Origin: Escherichia coli
GTDB taxonomy: Bacteria; Pseudomonadota; Gammaproteobacteria; Enterobacterales; Enterobacteriaceae
Assembly: GCF_013315695.1 (NCBI RefSeq)
Contig: NZ_CP054353.1
Strand: one strand, 5' to 3'
DNA: 64,000 nucleotides
In this document: positions 1 to 64,000 of the stretch, in pieces
Layout of the letters: each line of letters starts with the position of its first letter
How positions within the stretch are numbered: position 1 is the first letter of the stretch
Made by a program: the position numbers and the translations under genes
Notes under the pieces: generated by a model
The model's input: the letters and a program-made list of their open reading frames with translations, nothing else
The model's database searches: none
What the model was told of the DNA's origin: nothing

Positions 1-267
1 GACTGGGAATCATCGGCAACCTGTATCTCTGCAGGATTATGCATAGGGATGGTGCCAACACATTTCGCCAAACCGTGGCTTAATGAGGATAAGTGGGTAG
101 CACTAGAACTGGAAAACCCCTTCCCGGATTCGGCATGTTGTCTGACATGGCAGCAAAATGATATGTCGCCTGCGTTAACCTGGTTGCTTGAGTATCTCGG
201 CGATAGTGAGACGCTGAATAAGGAGTGGCTGCGGGAGCCGGAAGAGACTCCCGCAACGGGTGATTAA
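1..267 (+). CDS. ydhB: LysR-family transcriptional regulator, C-terminal part (5' end lies outside window)
   Basis: Open frame from position 1 to stop at 265-267 (ORF track 49..267 is the in-frame tail); convergent with purR as in K-12 ydhB(punR)-purR; identity by synteny, not by recognised motif. Confidence 0.6.
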
Positions 268-1289
268 CGACGATAGTCGCGGAACGGGCCGTCAGCCACG
301 GAGCGGCGTTCAATCAACCGCGGATGCACTTCAATGGATTGCGGTTCTTCGCGTTTATTGACGATACGATCCAACAGCATGTTGAACGCCGTTTCGCCCA
401 GCGAATCTTTTGGCTGATGGATCGTGGTCAGCGCCGGCGTAAAATAGCGGGCGTTGCGCACGTTATCATAACCGATCAGCGAAACATCCTGCGGCACGCG
501 CAGACCCATTTCATCAGCAGCACAAAGTGCGCCCATTGCCATGATATCGCCACCACAGAAGACGGCAGTAGGGCGATGCGGTTGCGACAGTATTTGCTGC
601 ATGGCGCGATAACCGGATTCAGGTTCAAAATCACCCTGTACAATCCAGCTTTCCGGCACCTTGATCATCGCTTCTTCCATCGCCTTCATAAAACCGGCAA
701 GGCGGCCTGCGCCAGTGTTACGTTCCAGCGGGCCGGGGATAACGCCGATTTCGCGGTGACCGCGTTCTATCAGATAACGCCCGGCCATGTAACCGCCTTC
801 GAACGCGTTATCAATGACCGCATCGGTGAAGTCAGCTTTTGCTTCACCCCAGTCCATCACCACCATTGGGATATGGCGATACTCTTCCAGCATCGCCAGC
901 AATGGCTCTGGGTACTCAGAACACATCACCAGCAGACCATCGACGCGTTTTTGCGCCATCATCGACAGATAAGCCCGCTGTTTCTCAAGATTGTTCCACG
1001 CATTGCCCAGAATCAGGGTGTAACCTTTCTGGAAGCAATTTTTTTCAACCGCTTCAATGATCTCGGCAAAATAGGCCGCTTCGCTGCTGGTCGCCAGCAA
1101 ACCGATAGACTTAGTGTGGTTAACCTTCAGACTACGTGCCACCGCGCTAGGGGAGTAGTGTAATTCTTTGATCGCTGCCCACACGGCGTTGCGCGTTTCT
1201 TCAGCGACGAAACGTGTTTTGTTGATCACGTGTGACACAGTTGTAGTGGAAACGTTTGCTCGTTTCGCTACATCTTTTATTGTTGCCAT
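264..1289 (-). CDS. purR: Purine repressor PurR (LacI family)
   Basis: 341-aa ORF; N-terminal [27 protein letters not shown] and full-length match to remembered PurR; expected length. Confidence 0.95.
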
Positions 1290-1333
1290 TCCATTTCACT
1301 CCAGACCCTAACTTCAGCTCCTGCAAAATCGCA

Positions 1334-1349
1334 AGGTAAACGTTTGCCT
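1334..1349 (-). promoter_or_regulatory. Candidate PurR operator (pur box) in purR 5' leader
   Basis: aggtaaacgtttgcct contains the palindromic core AAACGTTT of the PurR box, 45-60 nt upstream of the purR start codon; purR is known to be autoregulated via leader operators. Confidence 0.45.
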
Positions 1350-1587
1350 TTACACACTTTACGCACAACAAAAGTGTTGCGGTACGCCGGAAAAACGACA
1401 CGGAGCGTCAGGAAGGGGTCAATGGCCAGTACGCAAATAGTGTAAGCGTGGAATTTTGGCCGATCTTGACGAAAAGGGGAAGTGGTAAAAACACTTATCA
1501 TTATAAATGACGGGAGATTTTTTCATCATAGTGTGTAAAAATGCGTAATATCACTTTTTGTGTGGTAATAAAAAAGGAGAAAACTTG

Positions 1588-1677
1588 ATGAGCACCGACC
1601 TTAAATTTTCACTGGTAACAACGATTATCGTCCTCGGTTTGATCGTGGCCGTGGGTTTGACTGCCGCGCTGCACTGA
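1588..1677 (+). CDS. ynhF: Small membrane protein YnhF (29 aa)
   Basis: ATG at 1588 preceded by aaaaaggaga SD; translation MSTDLKFSLVTTIIVLGLIVAVGLTAALH (single TM helix) matches remembered YnhF; below the 60-aa ORF-track cutoff so found by reading the sequence. Confidence 0.8.
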   Translation: MSTDLKFSLVTTIIVLGLIVAVGLTAALH

Positions 1678-1842
1678 TTTCCTCTCGAGGGAGCGCGTTC
1701 TCCCTCGCATCTCCTTCCTGTTTGTTAGCAAAATGGCAAAAGTGTTTTCTCTTTTTGTTATTTTCATTTTTTTGTGATTGCTGTCATGCTTTCGCCACTT
1801 TAATGAATATCGCGTAATGACGCGAAGAGGTGGAGATAAGGC

Positions 1843-3012
1843 ATGAAAATTAACTATCCGTTGCTGGCGCTGGCGATTGGCGCGTTTGGTATCGGGACAA
1901 CGGAGTTCTCGCCAATGGGCTTGTTGCCCGTCATTGCGCGCGGTGTGGATGTCTCGATTCCCGCTGCCGGAATGTTAATCAGTGCCTATGCAGTTGGCGT
2001 AATGGTGGGCGCGCCGCTGATGACGCTTCTACTTTCTCATCGTGCCCGCCGCAGTGCGTTGATTTTCCTGATGGCGATTTTCACGCTCGGCAACGTACTT
2101 TCCGCCATCGCGCCGGATTATATGACCCTGATGCTTTCTCGCATTTTGACCAGCCTGAATCACGGAGCATTTTTTGGTTTGGGTTCAGTCGTGGCCGCAA
2201 GCGTGGTGCCAAAACATAAACAGGCCAGCGCAGTTGCCACTATGTTTATGGGGTTAACCCTGGCAAATATCGGTGGCGTGCCGGCGGCGACCTGGTTGGG
2301 TGAAACTATCGGCTGGCGGATGTCATTTCTGGCAACGGCGGGGCTGGGAGTGATTTCAATGGTAAGTCTGTTCTTCTCATTACCTAAAGGTGGTGCAGGG
2401 GCACGACCTGAAGTGAAAAAAGAGCTGGCGGTATTAATGCGTCCGCAGGTGCTGTCTGCATTGCTGACGACGGTACTGGGAGCTGGTGCAATGTTTACCC
2501 TCTACACCTATATCTCTCCGGTACTGCAAAGTATTACCCACGCAACACCGGTGTTCGTCACAGCAATGCTGGTGCTGATTGGTGTCGGATTCTCTATCGG
2601 TAACTATCTCGGCGGCAAACTGGCAGATCGTTCAGTTAACGGCACGTTGAAAGGCTTTTTGTTGCTGCTGATGGTGATTATGCTGGCAATCCCGTTCCTG
2701 GCCCGCAATGAGTTCGGCGCAGCTATTAGCATGGTGGTGTGGGGCGCTGCAACCTTTGCGGTCGTACCGCCGTTACAGATGCGCGTGATGCGTGTCGCCA
2801 GTGAAGCGCCAGGTCTGTCTTCATCAGTCAATATTGGTGCCTTTAATCTTGGAAATGCGCTGGGAGCAGCTGCTGGTGGTGCGGTAATTTCCGCTGGGCT
2901 GGGATACAGCTTTGTGCCGGTGATGGGGGCGATTGTCGCGGGACTGGCATTATTGCTGGTGTTTATGTCAGCCAGAAAACAACCTGAAACAGTTTGCGTT
3001 GCCAACAGCTAA
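1843..3012 (+). CDS. ydhP: MFS transporter YdhP
   Basis: 389-aa ORF, 12-TM-like hydrophobic profile, position between purR and sodB as in K-12. Confidence 0.9.
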   Translation: MKINYPLLALAIGAFGIGTTEFSPMGLLPVIARGVDVSIPAAGMLISAYAVGVMVGAPLMTLLLSHRARRSALIFLMAIFTLGNVLSAIAPDYMTLMLSRILTSLNHGAFFGLGSVVAASVVPKHKQASAVATMFMGLTLANIGGVPAATWLGETIGWRMSFLATAGLGVISMVSLFFSLPKGGAGARPEVKKELAVLMRPQVLSALLTTVLGAGAMFTLYTYISPVLQSITHATPVFVTAMLVLIGVGFSIGNYLGGKLADRSVNGTLKGFLLLLMVIMLAIPFLARNEFGAAISMVVWGAATFAVVPPLQMRVMRVASEAPGLSSSVNIGAFNLGNALGAAAGGAVISAGLGYSFVPVMGAIVAGLALLLVFMSARKQPETVCVANS

Positions 3013-23240: not shown

Positions 23241-24104
23241 ATGATGAAAAATATTCTCGCTATCCAGTCTCACGTTGTTTATGGTCATGCGGGTAACAGT
23301 GCGGCAGAGTTTCCGATGCGCCGCCTGGGCGCGAACGTCTGGCCGCTGAACACCGTTCAATTTTCTAATCACACCCAATACGGCAAATGGACCGGCTGCG
23401 TGATGCCGCCCAGCCATTTAACCGAAATAGTGCAAGGCATTGCCGCCATTGATAAATTACACACCTGTGATGCCGTATTAAGTGGCTATCTGGGATCGGC
23501 GGAGCAGGGTGAACATATCCTCGGTATCGTCCGTCAGGTGAAAGCCGCGAATCCGCAGGCGAAATATTTTTGCGATCCGGTAATGGGTCATCCGGAAAAA
23601 GGCTGTATCGTTGCACCGGGTGTCGCAGAGTTTCATGTGCGTCACGGTTTGCCTGCCAGCGATATCATTGCGCCGAATCTGGTTGAGCTGGAGATACTCT
23701 GTGAGCATCCGGTAAATAACGTCGAAGAAGCGGTTCTGGCAGCGCGTGAACTCATTGCGCAAGGGCCACAAATTGTGTTGGTTAAACACCTGGCGCGGGC
23801 TGGCTACAGCCGTGACCGTTTTGAAATGCTGCTGGTTACCGCCGATGAAGCCTGGCATATCAGCCGTCCGCTGGTGGATTTTGGTATGCGCCAGCCGGTA
23901 GGTGTTGGTGATGTGACGAGCGGTTTACTGCTGGTGAAACTGCTTCAGGGGGCAACGCTGCAGGAGGCCCTGGAACATGTGACCGCTGCAGTATACGAAA
24001 TCATGGTGACCACCAAAGCAATGCAGGAATATGAGTTGCAAGTGGTTGCTGCTCAGGATCGTATTGCCAAACCAGAACATTATTTCAGCGCAACAAAGCT
24101 CTGA
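23241..24104 (+). CDS. pdxY: Pyridoxal kinase PdxY
   Basis: 287-aa [33 protein letters not shown]... Confidence 0.95.
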
Positions 24105-29987: not shown

Positions 29988-32684
<2,697 letters not shown>

Positions 32685-42962: not shown

Positions 42963-45838
<2,876 letters not shown>

Positions 45839-45853
45839 GGTAATGACTCCAAC

Positions 45854-46357
45854 TTATTGATAGTGTTTTATGTTCAGATAATGCCCGATGACTTTGTCAT
45901 GCAGCTCCACCGATTTTGAGAACGACAGCGACTTCCGTCCCAGCCGTGCCAGGTGCTGCCTCAGATTCAGGTTATGCCGCTCAATTCGCTGCGTATATCG
46001 CTTGCTGATTACGTGCAGCTTTCCCTTCAGGCGGGATTCATACAGCGGCCAGCCATCCGTCATCCATATCACCACGTCAAAGGGTGACAGCAGGCTCATA
46101 AGACGCCCCAGCGTCGCCATAGTGCGTTCACCGAATACGTGCGCAACAACCGTCTTCCGGAGCCTGTCATACGCGTAAAACAGCCAGCGCTGGCGCGATT
46201 TAGCCCCGACATAGCCCCACTGTTCGTCCATTTCCGCGCAGACGATGACGTCACTGCCCGGCTGTATGCGCGAGGTTACCGACTGCGGCCTGAGTTTTTT
46301 AAGTGACGTAAAATCGTGTTGAGGCCAACGCCCATAATGCGGGCTGTTGCCCGGCAT
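45854..46357 (-). CDS. insB: IS1 transposase InsB
   Basis: 167-aa [61 protein letters not shown]... Confidence 0.95.
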
Positions 46358-46551
46358 CCAACGCCATTCATGGCCATATCAATGATTTTCTGGTGCGTAC
46401 CGGGTTGAGAAGCGGTGTAAGTGAACTGCAGTTGCCATGTTTTACGGCAGTGAGAGCAGAGATAGCGCTGATGTCCGGCGGTGCTTTTGCCGTTACGCAC
46501 CACCCCGTCAGTAGCTGAACAGGAGGGACAGCTGATAGAAACAGAAGCCAC
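46276..46551 (-). CDS. insA: IS1 InsA
   Basis: 91-aa [46 protein letters not shown]... Confidence 0.95.
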
Positions 46552-46606
46552 TGGAGCACCTCAAAAACACCATCATACACTAAATCAGTAAGTTGGCAGC
46601 ATCACC

Positions 46607-53430: not shown

Positions 53431-54230
53431 GTCCCCAGGGAGACGTTTTCTCCCGTAGCCAGTATTTTTCCATTACGCATCAGAGAGACACCCACGCCCG
53501 ATGCTTTTGTTGCATCTGGTGCTGTGTTAGCAAACACATGTCTGGCACTGTCAGTGGTAGCACCCGAAAGATAAAATGAGAGTTTTTGTTCACTTGAGCA
53601 ATATACGCCAAGGGGTATTTCTGCGCTTCCAGGAAAGTCCGGGAGATTCACGGTGACATTACGACTATCAACGGTGCAACCGCCTGTTGGCATAACAACA
53701 CTGTTATTTGAAATAATATTCCACGTAAAATTACGCGGATTTCCGCTTCCTAACGTGGCAATTTTATACATATGAATACGGGCAATAACTTCCCCTGCTT
53801 TTATGACAACTCCACCGGCCGCTCCGACTGGGGTAATATAGAGTTTTAACGGTAATGGCATCGGTGTCTTATCACCAATATCTAATACATTAGTATTTGT
53901 CGTCAACGGGAAGGGGTAGGTCACATTATTCCAGTACAGTGATCCTTTATATGACTGTAGGGAGCCTGCGAAAGCTGATCCTTGTACCAGGTTTATATGA
54001 TCAGTGTCGTACCAGCCGCCGTAATCATTCCAGCAACTTATATGCTGAGACAAGTCTACAACCAGATTCTGGCCCGGTTGTATTACAGGGTCGAGATTAA
54101 CATAAACAGAGGTTGTACCTGCTCCAATACTTGACCCGCCATCGACATTACAACTGAAGGCAAAAACTTTGCCTGCCATTAATAGAAGATAAATACCGAA
54201 CAGAAGCTTCATACTTATTGTTTTACCCAT
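53431..54230 (-). pseudogene. ydeQ: FimH-like fimbrial tip adhesin (ydeQ-like), C-terminus truncated by IS4
   Basis: 274-aa ORF aligns to FimH-type adhesins (GQNLVVDLS...VMPTGGCTV...VNLPDFPGS...) but stops 7 codons inside IS4 copy 1, missing roughly the last 35 residues. Confidence 0.7.
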
Positions 54231-54289
54231 GATATATCCTAAGGTTAAAAAATTGATTTAAAAAGGAGGCTAAGAAAATCGAATCGACG

Positions 54290-54793
54290 TTATTGCCAGG
54301 TGTAGATCACATTGATTAGCGCCTCGATCGTTCCCTGGCTTGCGTTTCCATTCACCGTGATAGCTCTTGCCTTAAGTGGAAACTGTGCATTACGAGTGAT
54401 CTCATCAACAATAACCGTTTTGCTATCGCCATTTTTTAACGTCGCATCCTGGTCATCCCTTAGCTCTATCTGAATATTTTCGGCTGTACCTTCATTTTTG
54501 TAATACCCCGTATTGTCAGTTGAACCTGTCACGATTGCCGTCACTGCACTTGTTTCAACCGGACAATCGGTTAATGACAAAGTAATATTGTGCCAGCCAG
54601 ATGCAGAACCAGGTTGTTGCAGATTGCGTGTATAAAGATCCCCGAGATTAACGTTAGCTTCTTTGGTTTGAATAGTGCATGGTTTAGCGCCTACCCGACC
54701 ATTAACAGTGATAGTGACATCGGCGGCCTGGAGAGTTGCTGTGAATAATGTGCAAAACGTAGCTAACAGGAACCTCTTGTGAAGTCTTTTCAT
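54290..54793 (-). CDS. ydeR: Fimbrial minor subunit (ydeR-like), 167 aa
   Basis: Signal peptide plus type 1 pilin-like sequence ending ...YTWQ; length matches remembered YdeR. Confidence 0.7.
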   Translation of the reverse strand: MKRLHKRFLLATFCTLFTATLQAADVTITVNGRVGAKPCTIQTKEANVNLGDLYTRNLQQPGSASGWHNITLSLTDCPVETSAVTAIVTGSTDNTGYYKNEGTAENIQIELRDDQDATLKNGDSKTVIVDEITRNAQFPLKARAITVNGNASQGTIEALINVIYTWQ

Positions 54794-54805
54794 ATCTGAC
54801 TCTGA

Positions 54806-55336
54806 TTATTGAAATTCAAGGGTAAAGGTTGCCGAAGCGCTCACCAGTCCAGGATTGACGGACTTCTGAGTTGACTTCAAACGAGCGGAGTAAGGCAAAA
54901 TATTGTTCTGTTCTGGTACCAATGGGATCCACTGCATCTCGGCATGAAGGTCATTCAATTTCACCGGACGCATATTTCCGTCCAGTATTTCTATACCCAA
55001 ACCGGAGGCCGTATTGCTTCCTTCATCCAGTTTCAACAGAGTATTATTTTCTGCATCCTCAATACCGTTAAATGCAACCCGAACTCCCGTTGTCCCTTTG
55101 CTGCATTCACTTAATGTAATCTGAAAAGGGACGGCTGGACTTGTGCTACCGGTCGTTGGAAATTGTCTGGCACTGTTTTTTTGGAGATCTACGGTAAAAT
55201 TAAGCGAATCCGATGAGACTGTGCAGCCATAATCGAGAACGCGCCCGCTAATTTTAATAACGCTATCTGCGGATAAAGCAGAATAGGTGGTTAACCCCAG
55301 ACATAAACCGAGGAAAATAACGTTATTGTATTTCAT
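54806..55336 (-). CDS. ydeS: Fimbrial subunit (ydeS-like), 176 aa
   Basis: Signal peptide plus pilin fold ending ...TFTLEFQ; length matches remembered YdeS. Confidence 0.7.
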   Translation of the reverse strand: MKYNNVIFLGLCLGLTTYSALSADSVIKISGRVLDYGCTVSSDSLNFTVDLQKNSARQFPTTGSTSPAVPFQITLSECSKGTTGVRVAFNGIEDAENNTLLKLDEGSNTASGLGIEILDGNMRPVKLNDLHAEMQWIPLVPEQNNILPYSARLKSTQKSVNPGLVSASATFTLEFQ

Positions 55337-55349
55337 AATCTATTGTTCC

Positions 55350-56149
55350 TTAGCGACAGATTGCTGTCTGCTGGTTCAGCAAGGTTCCAGGAGAGACTGC
55401 AGGAAGCTTGTAATCGACAATACAGTTTGAGTTTTTATCATTGCCCCATGAAACCTGTAATTTCCCTGACTGCGGAAGTCCAGTCAGATAAACCTGACCA
55501 TTTTCCGCGACAATGCTGCCATTTTTATTCTCTCCGTGAGTGACAATTGCACCGAATGGAACGCTTTTATTACCGTACTTCAACGTCATTAATACTTTCC
55601 CGCCGATTTGTGCATTAAATGTTGCTCTGGCAATAGCACCGTGAGTTGGGATGACAGTGACTACGGTTTCATCCAGTTCAACATTATCTGCAAGGGAATT
55701 CGCGTTAAGAGCGACACGATTTTCTCTATATTCTGTCGCAAATGGTAATATGGCATAGCCACGCCAGTCGGTATGAATTCCGGTCTGGTTCTCTATTTTG
55801 ACATTATCAGCGCCAGGAGCCTTAACCAGAACCATTGTGTCGCCCAGCGGCTGTCCAAAGGTGATGCCATCAGCATGAGCAATAATCCCACCACTCATTC
55901 CGTAATAAATCTGGCTGCTGTCACCACTCCGACTGTAACCGACATTCGTATTACCGTAAGCTCCACGATAATTAAGAGAACTGTAACCATTGGTGCCAGA
56001 CGATGTATTACCCCCTTGGGTGTTACCGACCTGAACGCTATAATTCAGGTTATTATCCGGCAGCAGAGTGCCATAAACCCCTGATAGGTTGGTCATGCCG
56101 CCTTTCAAATCGTTTGACATACTGTAACTGGCGTTTGAATTACGAAATG
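55350..56149 (-). pseudogene. ydeT: Fimbrial usher C-terminal fragment (ydeT-like), interrupted upstream by IS2
   Basis: ORF 55350..56177 resembles FimD-family usher C-terminal domains; ORF start lies inside IS2. Confidence 0.7.
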
Positions 56150-56240
56150 TAGACTGGCCCCCTGAATCTCCAGACAACCAGTATCACTTATTTAAGTGAT
56201 AGTCTTAATACTAGTTTTTAGACTAGTCATTGGAGAGCAG

Positions 56241-56606
56241 ATGATTGATGTCTTAGGACCGGAGAAACGCAGACGGCGTACCACACAGGAAAAGATCGCA
56301 ATTGTTCAGCAGAGCTTTGAACCGGGGATGACGGTCTCCCTCGTTGCCCGGCAACATGGTGTAGCAGCCAGCCAGTTATTTCTCTGGCGTAAGCAATACC
56401 AGGAAGGAAGTCTTACTGCTGTCGCCGCCGGAGAACAGGTTGTTCCTGCCTCTGAACTTGCTGCCGCCATGAAGCAGATTAAAGAACTCCAGCGCCTGCT
56501 CGGCAAGAAAACGATGGAAAATGAACTCCTCAAAGAAGCCGTTGAATATGGACGGGCAAAAAAGTGGATAGCGCACGCGCCCTTATTGCCCGGGGATGGG
56601 GAGTAA
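56241..56606 (+). CDS. insC: IS2 InsC (OrfA)
   Basis: [56 protein letters not shown]... Confidence 0.93.
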
Positions 56607-57469
56607 GCTTAGTCAGCCGTTGTCTCCGGGTGTCGCGTGCGCAGTTGCACGTCATTCTCAGACGAACCGATGACTGGATGGATGGCCGCCGCAGTCGTCA
56701 CACTGATGATACGGATGTGCTTCTCCGTATACACCATGTTATCGGAGAGCTGCCCACGTATGGTTATCGTCGGGTATGGGCGCTGCTTCGCAGACAGGCA
56801 GAACTTGATGGTATGCCTGCGATCAATGCCAAACGTGTTTACCGGATCATGCGCCAGAATGCGCTGTTGCTTGAGCGAAAACCTGCTGTACCGCCATCGA
56901 AACGGGCACATACAGGCAGAGTGGCCGTGAAAGAAAGCAATCAGCGATGGTGCTCTGACGGGTTCGAGTTCTGCTGTGATAACGGAGAGAGACTGCGTGT
57001 CACGTTCGCGCTGGACTGCAGTGATCGTGAGGCACTGCACTGGGCGGTCACTACCGGCGGCTTCAACAGTGAAACAGTACAGGACGTCATGCTGGGAGCG
57101 GTGGAACGCCGCTTCGGCAACGATCTTCCGTCGTCTCCAGTGGAGTGGCTGACGGATAATGGTTCATGCTACCGGGCTAATGAAACACGCCAGTTCGCCC
57201 GGATGTTGGGACTTGAACCGAAGAACACGGCGGTGCGGAGTCCGGAGAGTAACGGAATAGCAGAGAGCTTCGTGAAAACGATAAAGCGTGACTACATCAG
57301 TATCATGCCCAAACCAGACGGGTTAACGGCAGCAAAGAACCTTGCAGAGGCGTTCGAGCATTATAACGAATGGCATCCGCATAGTGCGCTGGGTTATCGC
57401 TCGCCACGGGAATATCTGCGGCAGCGGGCTTGTAATGGGTTAAGTGATAACAGATGTCTGGAAATATAG
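56564..57469 (+). CDS. insD: IS2 transposase InsD (OrfB, expressed by -1 frameshift from insC)
   Basis: 301-aa ORF overlapping the insC 3' end in the -1 frame; DDE integrase-type sequence. Confidence 0.93.
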
Positions 57470-57480
57470 GGGCAAATCCA

Positions 57481-58125
57481 AAATGCCGACTGACTGTCTG
57501 TGCGCATCCAATGACTAAAGGGAACATTAAGCGTAAAAGCGAGTAAATGATCCCGATCGTTTTGCCATATATTATTGGAATAGCTGTAATTCAGCGAAGT
57601 CGTAATATCACTAAACGGCACATTTAATCCAAATGATATTTGCTGGTCGCTGCGTGACGTGTTCCAGTAACTTTGGCGACTGGCACTGAAAAATGTCGTA
57701 CCGTAATTTCCAAGCTGCTGAGAGATGCTTATTTGTTCCTGACCACGCTTACTGTAGAACAGATTAAAATAATCAATAAATTGTGTCTGCTCATTGCTGT
57801 CTCCGGTAGGAGGCTTGACGGTGTAACCACTCATTCGACTGTAGGCACTGTCGGATAAGTTATAAAAACCTTGCGTAGAATAGCGATATCCTGCGACCTG
57901 GATATTGGTTCCCGTCTGGTAGAAGGATTTGCTGTAGACGGATTTAATCGATTGCCCGCTGTGACGGGTGCCATCTGCAAGTGTCGTATTGGCCTGCGTG
58001 ATATCGAAAGAAAAGGCACCAAAAAGTCCTAAATCTTTACCAATACCAAGGTTGAAGGCCTGATAATCTTCTGCAATTTGCATTCCGCCATAAGGCGTCC
58101 AGTTTCCTTCCAGTCCATGCATCAA
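57481..58125 (-). pseudogene. ydeT: Fimbrial usher internal fragment (ydeT-like); N-terminal part of the usher absent
   Basis: ORF 57394..58125 is usher-like until it runs into IS2; together with 55350..56149 about 480 codons, roughly half of a full usher; upstream is AT-rich non-coding. Confidence 0.65.
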
Positions 58126-58506
58126 GTCATTCTGTTATTGCTTATAAAACAAGAATCATTCTTGATGGGATATTGCCCTGAGAATATAGTTTCCAGGGTT
58201 ATTACATTTCACGAAGAACGATAATATCTTTAAATTACAAGGACACCTAATCACAACAAGTTTATTGCAGCACTTGTTGTAGAGAGTATTTGCAAAGACA
58301 TTTTATGTCGCTAAATAACATGACGATTTCATTATGCATGTTATTTATAAACCGTGACTAAACAGAATATTATTGCGAACAAGGGAAGTGTCAGGAAAGG
58401 TCAAGAGCGACCAATGGTTTATATGGCTATAAATCATTAGCTATAGTTAATGTTTGCCTGGTGTAACTAACACGGAATTGCTCTAAACAGATAAGTGCAG
58501 GGTTTA

Positions 58507-58761
58507 TTAAAGCTGACCGACAGACTTTCTTAACCTGGTAATATCTCTCTTAGGTGACTCTCCAAACATCCGCGAATATTCCCGACTGAAATGGGATAAG
58601 CTTTCGTAACCGACAACATAGGCTGCAGTGGTGACATCGTAATGTTCATTCAGCATCAGTCGCCTGGCTTCATTGAGGCGTAGCCATTTCTGATACCGGA
58701 GTGGACTCATTCCCGCAAGCTGTATGAAGTGTTGATGGAAAGAGGGGGTGTTCATTTGCAC
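58507..58761 (-). pseudogene. yneL: AraC-family regulator C-terminal HTH fragment (yneL-like)
   Basis: 84-aa ORF with AraC-type second HTH (...YVVGYESLSHFSREYSRMFGESPKR...); no intact N-terminal domain upstream. Confidence 0.6.
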
Positions 58762-59150
58762 GCGGTTTGCCAGCCTGACTCTTCAACGCAGGGAAGATGC
58801 GGCAAACGGCAAACCTGCATACCAGCCAGCCTATATCCGGTATGCACAGGCCAATCATGAAAGAGGAGAGGCTTTATGTTCTGGAACCCTGAAGTAATAA
58901 CGACGACCGGAAAATCGCTTCGCATCACTCAAATCACATTTAACATAATATACATTATGCGCACCAACATAAACCAAGGAAGAATCCAGTCGTTGGCGGT
59001 CATGATTGTCGTGCTCATTAATAACGACCAAACCCCATATTAACTGCCGCATCAAAAACGCCATGATCCGCGCGATGCCTGGGCCTCCATCTGATTCATG
59101 AAAGTGACAACGGTCTGGCATAACGGCTGGCTAACCACTCCGGTGCATAC

Positions 59151-61119
59151 TTAAAGGTGTGCGCGCCGTTGGCTAACTTCGTTAAGTTCGCCGGTCACGT
59201 TTTTTAGCGTTAACAGACCGTCACTAGCAATATTTCCTCTGCCTAACCCCTGCGTATTGTCGAGGCTGACTTCCGCATTTGGGCTAATGCTGGTTAACGC
59301 ATTGTAGCGTGCATTAAGCCCCTCGATAGCCAGTGTTCCCCCTGTAACATTCAGGTTTCCGCCACCTGTCAGTTCGCCCTGACTGATCCCACCTTTATTC
59401 ACCGTCAGCGAACCTTCTTTGAACAAAACAGTCGAACCCATCAGCCCGGTGAATGTCTCCACCGTCTGGGCCGATCCATTAAGATCGACGATGGCCGCGT
59501 TGCTGATGTTCAGTTCCCGGGTGTTGCCCAGCGCGCCATCCGCATCGGTACGTAATGTCCCCATCTGAACATAGGTTGCCCCCTGATAGTCGTTCTGACC
59601 GTTGGAAAGCGAAACCTGTCGCACCGTATTGATTGCCAGATCCCCTTCACCACCGATTTTTGCCGACATATCGGCCGTTGCGCCATAGGCTCCGCCATGT
59701 TCGGCTAACGTCAGCTTTTGCCCTCCATGGATGTTCAGCGCTTTCAGCCCATAGTTAACGTACAAACCATCACCTGGTGCGGTCGTGAGGCGGAATCCAT
59801 AATCACCCTCGGCGACCACCGTTCCGTTTTGCGCAATGTGTAACGTTTTGTCCGCTTCCACCTCGTCGCCCTGTAAATCACGTAACGTTAATGAGCCACC
59901 CGACCCAATAACCGTTTGCGCCTTCACCAGTTGAACGCCGACATGGCTATCATCGTGTTCCAGCAAATTGAGCGTCGTCAGAGGGTTATTCGCCATGGGA
60001 TCATTCCACGGTTTAGGCACGTCGATAAGCACGTCGCCCGTCCCGTTTACCTGATAGTTACGGCCTTTCCAGGTGTAGTCACCCGCGCCGACAACCAGCG
60101 TATCGACGCTGATATATCCCTCTGCAAGCGTCGCAGCAGGAATATCCGTATCGAAAATGAGCGTACCGCCATTCATGGCCAGTCCACCAATGGATTGCTC
60201 TCCCACTTTTACCGATGTGGTATTTTCACTGTCAGACTGCAACATCGCGTGAGTAAGCGCAGCGGTGTTGTCGCGTTCCAGAGTGAAGGTACTGTCTTTC
60301 AGTTGGGCAACACCGGCGAATTCAGTCCCTGTTGCATGGGTAAAGCCAAATATCTTGTCGGAGGATGACAGCTGCACTCGCATCAAGCCATCGCCTTTGA
60401 GCGCATTGGTCAGCGTGTAATCTCCTGCGCTGTTCGTTGATGCGAGAATGTCGAGCGTACCGGGGCTTGCAATGGTGACTTCACTCGAACCCATGCCTGT
60501 TACCCCATCTGCCGTATGTGACGCAATAGTCAGGAGGCCGTCATTGACCAGCGTTTTACCGCTATAAGTATTCCCTGCATTGAACACCGTATGGCCTGCA
60601 TCATGCATCACTTTTCCGTCTTTATCGTCACCCGTAATCAGCATATCGACCTGGTAGCCGGCATCACTGTTATTGGTATGATTAAAGACAAAAACGCCTT
60701 CGCCAAGACCAAACTCCACTTTCGTCGCATTGGTAATAAACCCGGCATCTGCCGCCACCTCACCGTGAGCAGCACCAATGTTTAGCGTTCCTACAGCAGG
60801 CTCAAAAACACCTAAGTAAACTTCTCCACCTTCGACATTCAGCGTGCCGTTATTCGTCAGGGTTAACGTACCTGTGCCAGTCGTCCCTACGTTCATATTG
60901 AATGTTTCAAGAAGAGAGTTCTGCCCATCCACCCGCACGTCGCCCTTACTTTTGTCATTCAGAGCTATCTGTGTATCACGCGCTTTAACTATACCTCCGG
61001 TGGTAATATTCAGTTCACCCGTACCTAATACACCGACCTGTAGCAATTGGGCGTTAGTAGATGACGTTTTTAAATTCCAGAGACTATCCGTTGAAATATT
61101 AACTATCCCCTTACCGGAG
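59151..61119 (-). pseudogene. AIDA-I-like autotransporter adhesin passenger domain, C-proximal part (no beta-barrel translocator follows)
   Basis: ORF 59151..61046 (631 aa), Gly/Thr/Asn-rich beta-helix-type repeats (TGTGTLTLTNNGTLNVEGG...); ends ...EVSQRRAHL without a barrel domain. Confidence 0.7.
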
Positions 61120-62545
61120 TAATGCCGATCAGTTAAGGATCAGTTGACCGATCCAGTGGCTGTGTAAGAATCCGGAAACGCTCACTTGTTTCCGGATTTT
61201 TTTATGCACATTGGACAGGCTCTTGATCTGGTATCCCGTTACGATTCTCTGCGTAACCCACTGACTTCTCTGGGGGATTACCTCGACCCCGAACTCATCT
61301 CTCGTTGCCTTGCCGAATCAGGTACTGTAACGCTACGCAAGCGCCGTCTTCCCCTCGAAATGATGGTCTGGTGTATTGTTGGCATGGCGCTTGAGCGTAA
61401 AGAACCTCTTCACCAGATTGTGAATCGCCTGGACATCATGCTGCCGGGCAATCGCCCCTTCGTTGCCCCCAGTGCCGTTATTCAGGCCCGCCAGCGCCTG
61501 GGAAGTGAGGCTGTCCGCCGCGTGTTCACGAAAACAGCGCAGCTCTGGCATAACGCCACGCCGCATCCGCACTGGTGCGGCCTGACCCTGCTGGCCATCG
61601 ATGGTGTGTTCTGGCGCACACCGGATACACCAGAGAACGATGCAGCCTTCCCCCGCCAGACACATGCCGGGAACCCGGCGCTCTACCCGCAGGTCAAAAT
61701 GGTCTGCCAGATGGAACTGACCAGCCATCTGCTGACGGCTGCAGCCTTCGGCACGATGAAGAACAGCGAAAATGAGCTTGCTGAGCAACTTATAGAACAA
61801 ACCGGCGATAACACTCTGACGTTAATGGATAAAGGTTATTACTCACTGGGACTGTTAAATGCCTGGAGCCTGGCGGGAGAACACCGCCACTGGATGATAC
61901 CTCTCAGAAAGGGAGCGCAATATGAAGAGATCAGAAAACTGGGTAAAGGCGATCATCTGGTGAAGCTGAAAACCAGCCCGCAGGCACGAAAAAAGTGGCC
62001 GGGACTGGGAAATGAAGTGACAGCCCGCCTGCTGACCGTGACGCGCAAAGGAAAAGTCTGCCATCTGCTGACGTCGATGACGGACGCCATGCGCTTCCCC
62101 GGAGGAGAAATGGCGGATCTGTACAGTCATCGCTGGGAAATCGAACTGGGATACAGGGAGATAAAACAGACGATGCAACTGAGCAGGCTGACGCTGAGAA
62201 GTAAAAAACCGGAGCTTGTGGAGCAAGAGCTGTGGGGTGTCTTACTGGCTTATAATCTGGTGAGATATCAGATGATTAAAATGGCGGAACATCTGAAAGG
62301 TTACTGGCCGAATCAACTGAGTTTCTCAGAATCATGCGGAATGGTGATGAGAATGCTGATGACATTGCAGGGCGCTTCACCGGGACGTATACCGGAGCTG
62401 ATGCGCGATCTTGCAAGTATGGGACAACTTGTGAAATTACCGACAAGAAGGGAAAGGGCCTTCCCGAGAGTGGTAAAGGAGAGGCCCTGGAAATACCCCA
62501 CAGCCCCGAAAAAGAGCCAGTCAGTTGCTTAACTGACTGGCATTA
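61120..62545 (+). mobile_element. IS4 copy 2 (1426 bp) with perfect 13-bp target-site duplication
   Basis: Same terminal repeats as copy 1; ccccttaccggag at 61107..61119 and 62546..62558. Confidence 0.95.
61204..62532 (+). CDS. insG: IS4 transposase
   Basis: Translation identical to copy 1. Confidence 0.93.
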
Positions 62546-64000
62546 CCCCTTACCGGAGGCATTTCCTCCGATAAATCCATAGCCCGTTGAATTAAGGGTG
62601 GCACCATTACTGACATTTACGATGCCGCTACCAAAATTACCGACATTGATACCTACAGTATCGAACGATGATGTCGCATCCATCAGGTTCAGTGTGCCGA
62701 TACCGCTTGCTTTATCGCCCAAAAAAGTAATATTTTGCGATACGAACTTACCGCCATCGCTGATATTGAGGTTTCCGACGCCCGCTACACCAATGGTGGT
62801 ATAGACATTCTTATTGACCTCCCATATCCCCCCCGTGGTGATGCTAACCTTCCCGACGCCGGTTTCTCCATAACCGAGTGAACTTCCTCCGTTGCTGACA
62901 ACAAGCCCCTCATTACTGATATTCATTTCGCCGTGGCCGTCATAACCAAGATTAGTTCCGAGATTAGTGATAACGGAGTTCTTATCCTTAACAGTAATGT
63001 TGCCTGTGCCTGTTTCTTTCATCCCCGCAGTGATAATTCCCGAATCTACTTTGCCTTCACTAGAGACATTAAGTTCACCGTCGCCAGCATCACCGATATA
63101 GATATAGCGGAAAGCTTCGCCCGTTCCGAGGAAATTCCAATGCCCTTTATCGGTCACGTTGACGACACCGTGGGAACCGTCCTGAACGCCCACCAATGAA
63201 TATTCTTTGTTATTAATCAGTCCATTATTGGAAATATTGACTTTGCCATTACCGAAATATCCATTATAGAGTCTGCGTACCGTGATGACAGAGTCTTGAT
63301 CCTGCACATTCAGGGTTCCGATACCGGTGGCATTGCCTCCGATAATCGTATTTTCAGCCGTAATTAGCCCACCCTCGCGAATAGTCGCTTCCCCAGTTCC
63401 TTGATTACCAATTTGAAATTCAATTGAGGAATCGTTATTTTTTATTAGCCACTCACCGCCCTTTTCAACGACAACCTTACCATTACTGTTCGCTTGATAT
63501 CCTACAGTGGCGACTATTGAACTCGTGACGTAACCCTTATCCGTAATATTTAATGAGCCCGTACCGTAACTCCCTATTTCGAATAATTCGGTCGTCAGAA
63601 CCGAGTCCTCTCCCTCAACATTAACCGTCCCGACGCCTCCTGTCGAAGAACCTATCCTTAAATATCCTCCGTCAACGTGACCCTTCTGTTTAATATTCAG
63701 CGTCCCCGTTCCGGATTGACCCACATTTAAAGGCCTTGCATTATTTCCGCTATCATACAATCGCCAGGTGCCACCCAAAACATTAACGGTGCCCTCCGAG
63801 TCCTCATTACCACCAATGACGCTGGTAGTAATAGTGGTTAAGGAGGCATTACCGCCAGCCAAAATATTAAGCACTCCAGTGCCATACCACCCAACCAGGT
63901 AGGCATCGTAAGCAACATCAGTATTAATATTGGTAATCTGACCATTATCAACTTCCAGACTCGCACCAGACGCTGAACCGCTTAGTGCCAGCAAAACACC
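62546..64000 (-). pseudogene. AIDA-I-like autotransporter passenger domain, N-proximal part (continues beyond window end)
   Basis: ORF 62543..63994 (483 aa) with repetitive G/N/T-rich motifs (GTGTLNIKQKGHVDGG..., GTGEATIREGG...); stop lies 3 nt inside IS4 copy 2. Confidence 0.7.

What the first reader, a model, noticed from the sequence alone, without database searches (positions are those of the whole stretch)
1588..1677. 29-aa single-TM small protein YnhF present between purR and ydhP
This is easily missed because it is below ORF-calling thresholds. It has a good SD (aggaga) and hydrophobic core, and the peptide matches the K-12 small protein YnhF as I remember it.
Basis: partly seen in the sequence, partly recalled or inferred. 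Interest (0 to 1): 0.25.

Follow-up and report, generated by a model that had tools for sequence, protein, structure and literature searches.

The report
Known oxidase subunit gene cydH (ynhF)

Summary
The ORF is real and sits exactly where stated: ATG at 1588, TGA at 1675-1677, 29 codons, with AAGGAG 8 nt upstream. The peptide MSTDLKFSLVTTIIVLGLIVAVGLTAALH is 100% identical to chain H of PDB 6RKO (cytochrome bd-I oxidase CydH/YnhF). It passes the NCBIfam equivalog model NF033411 (50.2 bits, cut-off 30). It lies in the same purR-(cydH)-ydhP-sodB context as K-12 b4602, which RefSeq now names cydH. In 69 Enterobacteriaceae species the ORF always has 29 codons. pN/pS is 0.15 in the called frame, about 1 or more in four other frames, and 0.31 in the antisense frame that shares its wobble positions. 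The SD is conserved, and a hairpin follows the stop codon in 67 of 69 species. The protein is no longer uncharacterised: cryo-EM places it between CydA TM1 and TM9, where it shields heme b595. It is also no longer missed, because current RefSeq records annotate it. Nothing here is novel. One side observation: Rfam types this whole stretch (1290-1680) as an "sRNA" (STnc550, 394 bits), although its 3' end is this coding sequence. Interest is low.

The parts
1588..1677 (+). cydH (ynhF, b4602 orthologue) coding sequence: 29 codons plus TGA
   Evidence: Searches give the ORF; 100% identity to 6RKO chain H. NF033411, 50.2 bits against a cut-off of 30. RefSeq annotates cydH; intact in 69 species, pN/pS 0.15.
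1574..1579 (+). Shine-Dalgarno AAGGAG, 8 nt upstream of the ATG
   Evidence: One search gives the sequence. AAGGAG or GGGGG is conserved at the same distance in all 69 loci.
1532..1543 (+). Near-invariant block TGTGTAAAAATG, a candidate extended -10 element (TGn-AAAAAT) of the cydH promoter. This is inferred and not shown.
   Evidence: 10 of 12 columns are 100% conserved across 69 sequences and the other two are about 80% and 50%. The consensus promoter scan, which requires a -35 element, found no + strand site, so this assignment is inference only.
1686..1707 (+). Conserved GC-rich hairpin (CGAGGGAG-CGCGTT-CTCCCTCG) starting 9 nt after the stop codon. It is the likely 3'-end or terminator structure of the cydH transcript, and in E. 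coli it has no clear U-tract.
   Evidence: the fold contains this stem; a stem of 7 or more pairs in 67 of 69 species against 14% of shuffles, with differing stem sequences. Atlantibacter carries an unrelated hairpin with a U-tract at the same place.
1290..1680 (+). Match to Rfam RF02081 'Enterobacterial sRNA STnc550'. It spans the whole purR-cydH intergenic region plus the cydH ORF.
   Evidence: 394.2 bits against a gathering score of 48. Model positions ~297-385 are the ORF. They are unstructured in the consensus, and their variable letters fall mostly on third codon positions.

Best explanation
Window 1588-1677 (+) is cydH (formerly ynhF, also cydY). It is a free-standing gene for a 29-residue single-helix inner-membrane protein that is the fourth subunit of cytochrome bd-I quinol oxidase (CydA-CydB-CydX-CydH). 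Shown by others: the peptide co-purifies with the oxidase, was identified by mass spectrometry, and is resolved by cryo-EM as one transmembrane helix in the cleft between TM1 and TM9 of CydA, on the side opposite CydX. Inferred from those structures: it shields heme b595 from the membrane. It thereby closes the wide gas-entry site that the Geobacillus enzyme uses, so that O2 reaches heme d through a narrow channel starting in CydB. The gene is not linked to cydABX, which lies ~963 kb away in K-12. Its product is reported to accumulate at low oxygen, as the oxidase does. At the sequence level it has its own strong SD and a conserved hairpin just after the stop codon. A near-invariant block 45-56 nt upstream of the ATG probably contains an extended -10 promoter element; this last point is my inference.
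For: Identity: 29 of 29 residues match PDB 6RKO chain H and seven newer bd-I entries. NCBIfam equivalog NF033411 scores 50.2 bits against a cut-off of 30. RefSeq annotates cydH at this position, and K-12 b4602 lies between ydhP and purR. The K-12 ORF differs by one synonymous base. Coding: the ORF is intact at 29 codons in 69 Enterobacteriaceae species. pN/pS is 0.15, with third-position entropy 1.20 against 0.36 and 0.21. The SD is conserved. Synteny purR(-)/cydH(+)/ydhP(+)/sodB(-) holds in 60 of 69 loci; most of the other nine are cut by contig ends or are positioned differently in the locus, and one (Pluralibacter, L005) lacks ydhP. Mechanism from the literature: PMC6853902 (MS identification, position, blocking of the b595 access, low-O2 production, retained fMet); PMC8951039 (cleft between CydA TM1 and TM9, stabilised by a lipid); PMC8585947, PMC12648545 and bioRxiv 10.1101/2025.10.10.681541. 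cydABX lies at 771,458-774,309 and cydH at 1,737,456-1,737,545 in K-12. Transcript end: a hairpin is conserved in 67 of 69 species.
Against: Nothing argues against the identity. The weaker links concern mechanism and regulation. The channel-blocking role is inferred from structures, and the papers themselves say 'probably'. E. coli bd-II and the mycobacterial enzymes work without such a subunit and rely on an Ile barrier. No cydH deletion phenotype was found in the papers I could read. The promoter is not identified: the consensus scan found no + strand promoter. An FNR ChIP peak exists in this intergenic region, but with a weak motif and no fnr-dependent expression change. The local Pfam copy gave no hit, although homologues carry a precomputed PF28012 label. 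cydABX is outside the window, so co-occurrence in this strain was not seen directly.
Confidence: 0.96

Rival explanations
1. CydH is a true bd-I subunit, but its role is mainly structural. It would stabilise or shield the lipid-exposed face of heme b595, or occupy a vestigial quinone site, and would not gate oxygen entry.
For: bd-II and the mycobacterial bd oxidases are assembled and active without it, and all bd oxidases share an Ile barrier between b595 and heme d. In mycobacteria the equivalent site binds menaquinone. Binding is mostly hydrophobic and lipid-assisted. The authors hedge with 'probably'.
Against: The structural papers argue that the conserved wide access to b595 must be closed in E. 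coli bd-I, because O2 has to bind heme d. Strong purifying selection on the helix (pN/pS 0.15) fits either role.
Confidence: 0.3
2. The transcript has two functions. Besides encoding CydH, it would act as an Hfq-associated regulatory RNA, the Salmonella 'sRNA' STnc550.
For: Rfam RF02081 STnc550, typed 'Gene; sRNA', matches 1290-1680 at 394 bits. The upstream non-coding sequence is unusually conserved, and a conserved 3' hairpin is present.
Against: The ORF part of the Rfam model has no consensus structure and shows coding-type wobble variation. Much of the conserved upstream sequence is explained by the divergent purR promoter, leader and operator (plus my own knowledge of purR autoregulation). 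The window breaks many of the model's predicted pairs (the 'v' marks). A full-text search for STnc550 returned no paper. No target or phenotype is known to me.
Confidence: 0.05
3. The locus is only a non-coding sRNA (STnc550), and the 29-codon ORF is incidental.
For: The Rfam typing as sRNA.
Against: The peptide is seen in solved structures and by mass spectrometry. pN/pS is 0.15, the ORF length is invariant, and the SD is conserved across 69 species.
Confidence: 0.01
4. The conserved signal belongs to an antisense gene overlapping 1588-1677.
For: One antisense frame is open in all 66 distinct sequences and has pN/pS 0.31. A 52-aa antisense ORF exists at 1609-1767.
Against: The open antisense frame shares wobble positions with cydH, and the NUN codons of a hydrophobic protein cannot create antisense stops, so it is an expected by-product. 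In the window that frame has no ORF of 20 aa or more. The 52-aa ORF lies in a different frame that is open in only 21 of 66 sequences, and an antisense ORF of at least 45 aa is kept in only 7 of 69 species. The sense frame has the lowest pN/pS and the fewest distinct peptides, 37 against 57.
Confidence: 0.005

Closest known systems
CydH / CydY / YnhF of E. coli K-12 (b4602, UniProt A5A618; PDB 6RKO chain H; NCBIfam NF033411)
   Same: Identical 29-aa sequence, the same genomic position between purR and ydhP, and the same SD. The DNA differs by one synonymous base.
   Different: Nothing of substance. Only the strain background differs, and the nearest complete genomes are human clinical isolates.
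CydX / AppX / CydS, the other single-helix accessory subunits of bd oxidases
   Same: The same kind of component: a peptide of about 30-40 aa with one TM helix, bound to CydA in cytochrome bd.
   Different: CydX is encoded in the cydABX operon, binds on the opposite side of CydA near heme b558, and is needed for assembly and stability. CydH is encoded ~963 kb away and binds between TM1 and TM9 next to heme b595. No hit to these proteins appeared in any of the searches.
Rfam RF02081 STnc550 (Enterobacterial sRNA)
   Same: The model matches window 1290-1680 end to end, and its last ~90 positions are the cydH ORF.
   Different: The family is typed as a non-coding sRNA, whereas this stretch encodes a proven protein. 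The 5' ~250 nt of the model overlaps, in antisense, the purR leader and promoter region.

Membership tests
CydH/YnhF (NCBIfam NF033411 small_mem_YnhF, equivalog) | Sequence scores above the curated cut-off of the family model over its full length | tested here: met
   50.2 bits against a cut-off of 30, residues 1-29 on profile positions 1-29 of 29, E = 1.7e-13.
CydH/YnhF | A protein of about 29 residues made almost entirely of one transmembrane helix | tested here: met
   29 aa, mean hydropathy 2.45 over residues 7-28; the length is invariant in 69 species.
CydH/YnhF | Orthologous genomic position: a free-standing gene between purR and ydhP, unlinked to cydABX | tested here: met
   Searches give the annotation. 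One search shows synteny in 60 of 69 loci; most of the others are cut by contig ends and one lacks ydhP. One search places cydABX ~963 kb away in K-12.
CydH/YnhF | Physically a subunit of cytochrome bd-I, bound between TM1 and TM9 of CydA | not testable with these tools
   This cannot be tested for this strain. It is supported indirectly: the sequence is identical to the chain modelled in 6RKO and in seven further bd-I structures (PMC6853902, PMC8951039).
CydH/YnhF | The gene is translated and under purifying selection as a protein | tested here: met
   pN/pS 0.15 in frame, at least 1.0 in four other frames, and 0.31 in the wobble-sharing antisense frame. The ATG, SD and stop are conserved.
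CydH/YnhF | Co-occurrence with a long-Q-loop (L-subfamily) CydAB oxidase in the same genome | not tested
   cydABX lies outside the 64-kb window. The claim of co-occurrence comes from the literature.
Rfam RF02081 STnc550 (non-coding sRNA) | Scores above the family gathering threshold | tested here: met
   394.2 bits against 48.
Rfam RF02081 STnc550 (non-coding sRNA) | The RNA is non-coding and acts as a regulatory RNA | tested here: not met
   The 3' ~90 nt encode CydH. A regulatory function for the RNA was not testable here, and no paper was found.

The most novel reading that the evidence does not exclude
The cydH transcript could be a dual-function RNA. Besides encoding the oxidase subunit it would be the Hfq-associated riboregulator catalogued as STnc550, linking expression of purR or other targets to low-oxygen respiration. 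The strongly conserved non-coding blocks around it would then serve RNA-level functions as well as promoter functions.
Probability: 0.05. Interest if true: 0.35.

Novelty: already known. Interest (0 to 1): 0.05.

Why it matters
It matters little for discovery. The gene, its product, its partner complex and its structure are all published, and current pipelines annotate it. The check does confirm that a reader working from sequence alone can recover a true 29-codon gene. It updates the label from 'uncharacterised YnhF' to 'bd-I subunit CydH'. It also flags that an Rfam 'sRNA' family (STnc550) is at least partly this mRNA, which is worth a curation note. Two questions remain open: how an unlinked subunit gene is co-regulated with cydABX, and what loss of CydH does to enzyme kinetics.

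Tried and rejected
- **Local Pfam-A scan.** It gave no hit, although homologues carry a precomputed PF28012 label. I took this as a gap in the library or its filters, not as evidence against membership.
- **Peptide too short.** I padded it with its own in-frame upstream translation.
- **Promoter scan.** The consensus scan found no + strand promoter upstream of cydH. The extended -10 proposal therefore rests only on conservation.
- **RNAalifold on the post-stop hairpin.** It returned no structure because MAFFT put the hairpins out of register. I replaced it with per-sequence hairpin detection against shuffles.
- **FNR and ArcA motifs.** The best FNR-like match in the intergenic region is TTGATGAGCACCGA at 1585-1598 (8 of 10), overlapping the start codon. 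No ArcA-like direct repeat lies upstream of cydH. The ArcA ChIP supplements do not mention ynhF, ydhP or purR. The FNR ChIP peak is reported without any expression change. My mapping of that peak onto the window uses an approximate offset between genome versions that I recalled from memory. I therefore assign no regulator.
- **Papers not available.** A full-text search for STnc550 found nothing. Hemm 2008 and 2010, Guan 2011 and Fontaine 2011 are not held, so their findings are cited only through PMC6853902.
- **Antisense gene.** Considered and rejected.

Full report
**Observation.** On the + strand there is an ATG at 1588-1590, then 28 further sense codons and a TGA at 1675-1677. AAGGAG lies at 1574-1579, 8 nt before the ATG. 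Residues 7-28 form a hydrophobic stretch with a mean Kyte-Doolittle value of 2.45. The neighbours are purR (264-1289, minus strand) and ydhP (1843-3012, plus strand), followed by sodB. The window is E. coli. The 553-bp purR-ydhP intergenic region matches 5425 of 5426 complete E. coli genomes, and several match at 100% identity.

**Is it more than chance?** A pattern scan of one genome per species found 69 loci, all from Enterobacteriaceae: Escherichia, Citrobacter, Enterobacter, Klebsiella, Raoultella, Leclercia, Lelliottia, Kluyvera, Atlantibacter, Phytobacter, Kosakonia and others.
- Every locus has an intact ATG, 29 codons and a stop.
- Variation is concentrated at third codon positions: entropy 1.20 against 0.36 and 0.21, and 28 of 29 third positions vary.
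- Pairwise pN/pS is 0.15 in the called frame and 1.0-2.8 in four of the other five frames.
- The remaining antisense frame has pN/pS 0.31 and is open in all sequences. Its wobble positions coincide with those of cydH, and the NUN codons of a hydrophobic protein cannot produce antisense stops, so this is an expected by-product. That frame has no ORF of 20 aa or more in the window and yields more distinct peptides, 57 against 37.
- The 52-aa antisense ORF at 1609-1767 is in a different frame that is open in only 21 of 66 sequences.
- The SD (AAGGAG or GGGGG) is kept at the same spacing in all loci.
- The order purR(-)/cydH(+)/ydhP(+)/sodB(-) holds in 60 of 69 loci. Most of the other nine are cut by contig ends or are positioned differently in the locus, and one (Pluralibacter, L005) lacks ydhP.

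**What it is.** The peptide is identical over all 29 residues to chain H of PDB 6RKO, named 'Cytochrome bd-I ubiquinol oxidase CydH (Uncharacterized protein YnhF)', and to the same chain in seven newer bd-I entries. It matches NCBIfam equivalog NF033411 (small_mem_YnhF, 'cytochrome bd-I oxidase subunit CydH') at 50.2 bits against a cut-off of 30. RefSeq annotates the gene as cydH at this position in the closest genomes. In K-12 it is b4602, between ydhP (b1657) and purR (b1658). The K-12 ORF differs from the window by one synonymous base. UniProt A5A618 is the corresponding entry.

**How it works.** What follows comes from the literature, and the gating role is inferred from structures.
- Thesseling et al. 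2019 (PMC6853902) found an unexpected fourth, single-helix subunit of about 3 kDa in purified E. coli bd-I and identified it by LC-MS/MS as YnhF.
- They noted that it is made at low oxygen and keeps its N-terminal formyl-methionine, and that its gene lies between ydhP and purR, outside the cyd operon.
- They proposed that it blocks the wide dioxygen entry site leading to heme b595. The Geobacillus enzyme uses that site, whereas in E. coli O2 reaches heme d through a narrow channel from CydB.
- A 2022 review places the helix in the cleft between TM1 and TM9 of CydA, stabilised by a phospholipid. It notes that in mycobacteria the same site binds menaquinone.
- The bd-II structure paper says CydH 'probably' has this functional role, and that bd-II has no such subunit.
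- Structures reported in a 2025 preprint again show the CydA-CydB-CydX-CydH heterotetramer.
- In K-12, cydABX is at 771,458-774,309 and cydH at 1,737,456-1,737,545, about 963 kb apart.

The identity of the gene is therefore firm. The channel-blocking role is a structure-based inference, and a mainly structural or shielding role remains a live alternative. I found no deletion phenotype in the papers I could read.

**Transcript anatomy.** This part is partly inferred.
- A GC-rich hairpin (CGAGGGAG-CGCGTT-CTCCCTCG, 1686-1707) starts 9 nt after the stop codon.
- A stem of 7 or more pairs is found within 60 nt of the stop in 67 of 69 species, against 14% of shuffles. The stem sequences differ between genera: GAGGGAG/CTCCCTC, GGGAGAG/CTCTCCC, GGGGGAGAG/CTTTCCCCC and CATGAGGG/CCCTCATG.
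- Atlantibacter has an unrelated hairpin with a U-tract at the same place. This supports a conserved 3'-end structure, although the E. coli version lacks a clear U-tract.
- Upstream, the blocks GGGAGATTTTT (1511-1521), TGTGTAAAAATG (1532-1543) and ATCACTTTTT (1550-1559) are almost invariant.
- TG-T-AAAAAT at 1534-1542 could be an extended -10 element. That would give a leader of about 38 nt.
- This is inference only. The consensus scan, which requires a -35 element, found no + strand promoter.
- Conservation at 1440-1485 fits the divergent purR promoter, and AAACGTTTGC at 1339-1348 fits a purR operator. Both readings rest on my knowledge of purR autoregulation (Rolfes and Zalkin 1990, listed).

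**Regulation.** Myers et al. [quoted passage not shown] All four peak callers found it. The motif is weak (ln p = -6.77), and there was no fnr-dependent expression change. The best FNR-like match in the intergenic region is TTGATGAGCACCGA at 1585-1598 (8 of 10), overlapping the start codon. The ArcA ChIP supplements do not list this locus. I therefore cannot say which regulator accounts for the reported low-oxygen accumulation.

**Side finding on Rfam.** The only Rfam hit in the 64-kb window is RF02081, 'Enterobacterial sRNA STnc550', at 1290-1680 (+) with 394 bits. It runs from the base next to the purR start codon to 3 nt past the cydH stop. The model's last ~90 positions are the cydH ORF. 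They carry no consensus structure, and their variable positions fall mostly on codon position 3. The window breaks many of the pairs predicted in the 5' part. A full-text search for STnc550 returned nothing. The family is thus at least partly an mRNA. A dual-function RNA is not excluded, but nothing I found supports it.

**Comparison and novelty.** This is cydH itself, not merely a relative of it. Every defining feature I could test was met: the family model, size and topology, synteny, and selection as a protein. Physical membership in the complex is supported by sequence identity to the solved chain, but it cannot be tested for this strain. The verdict is 'already known', and interest is low. 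Only the name and status (now a characterised oxidase subunit) and the remark that it is easily missed (current RefSeq records annotate it) need updating.

**Dead ends.**
- The local Pfam copy gave no hit.
- The peptide was too short for the homology tool until I padded it.
- RNAalifold failed on a mis-registered alignment.
- Four primary papers are not held.

Noticed in passing
window 1290-1680 (+): Rfam RF02081 'Enterobacterial sRNA STnc550' matches at 394 bits. It covers the whole purR-cydH intergenic region plus the cydH ORF. The ORF part is unstructured in the consensus and varies at wobble positions, so the 'sRNA' family is at least partly the cydH mRNA. A full-text search found no paper on STnc550.
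   Followed up: partly
window 1339-1348 and 1251-1260: Two PUR-box-like AAACGTTTGC motifs: one in the purR leader, invariant across 69 species, and one inside the purR coding region. They fit the two known purR autoregulation operators, which I recall from memory (Rolfes and Zalkin 1990). The conserved blocks at 1440-1485 fit the divergent purR promoter.
   Followed up: no
window ~1580-1615 (approximate mapping): A published FNR ChIP-seq and ChIP-chip peak is assigned to ynhF/purR (Myers 2013, Tables S5 and S9). The motif is weak and there was no fnr-dependent expression change. The best FNR-like 14-mer is TTGATGAGCACCGA at 1585-1598, overlapping the cydH start codon. The TTGATG before and over the ATG is conserved in nearly all 69 species.
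   Followed up: partly
window 1735-1795 (+): Well-conserved non-coding blocks lie between the cydH hairpin and ydhP: GGCAAAAGTGTTTTC and TTTTTGTGATTGCTGTCATGCTTTCGCC. They are probably the ydhP promoter or a regulatory region. Three ArcA-like direct-repeat matches (8 of 10) fall at 1723-1771.
   Followed up: no
window 30037-30458: A 96-bp tandem repeat, 4.4 copies at 90% identity, inside rsxC.
   Followed up: no
window 45839-46606: An IS1A insertion with an adjacent deletion of about 900 bp relative to strain MS 21-1. It truncates uidB (ORF 44766-45860, 364 aa) and removes the 5' part of uidC. The same arrangement occurs at 100% identity in two human clinical isolates.
   Followed up: partly
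window 53431-64000: The gene order departs from strain MS 21-1 here. Next to the fumarase-gene side comes a decayed fimbrial operon (fimF/fimG-like genes and usher fragments) interrupted by IS2, then a truncated autotransporter, an IS4 copy (61115-62551) and an ESPR-signal autotransporter fragment. In the nearest genome this block lies ~120 kb from where collinearity would place it and in the opposite orientation, which suggests an IS4-mediated rearrangement.
   Followed up: partly
window 23241-24104 (+): pdxY is an intact 287-aa ORF in the window, whereas the near-identical strain MS 21-1 has it annotated as a pseudogene with an internal stop.
   Followed up: no
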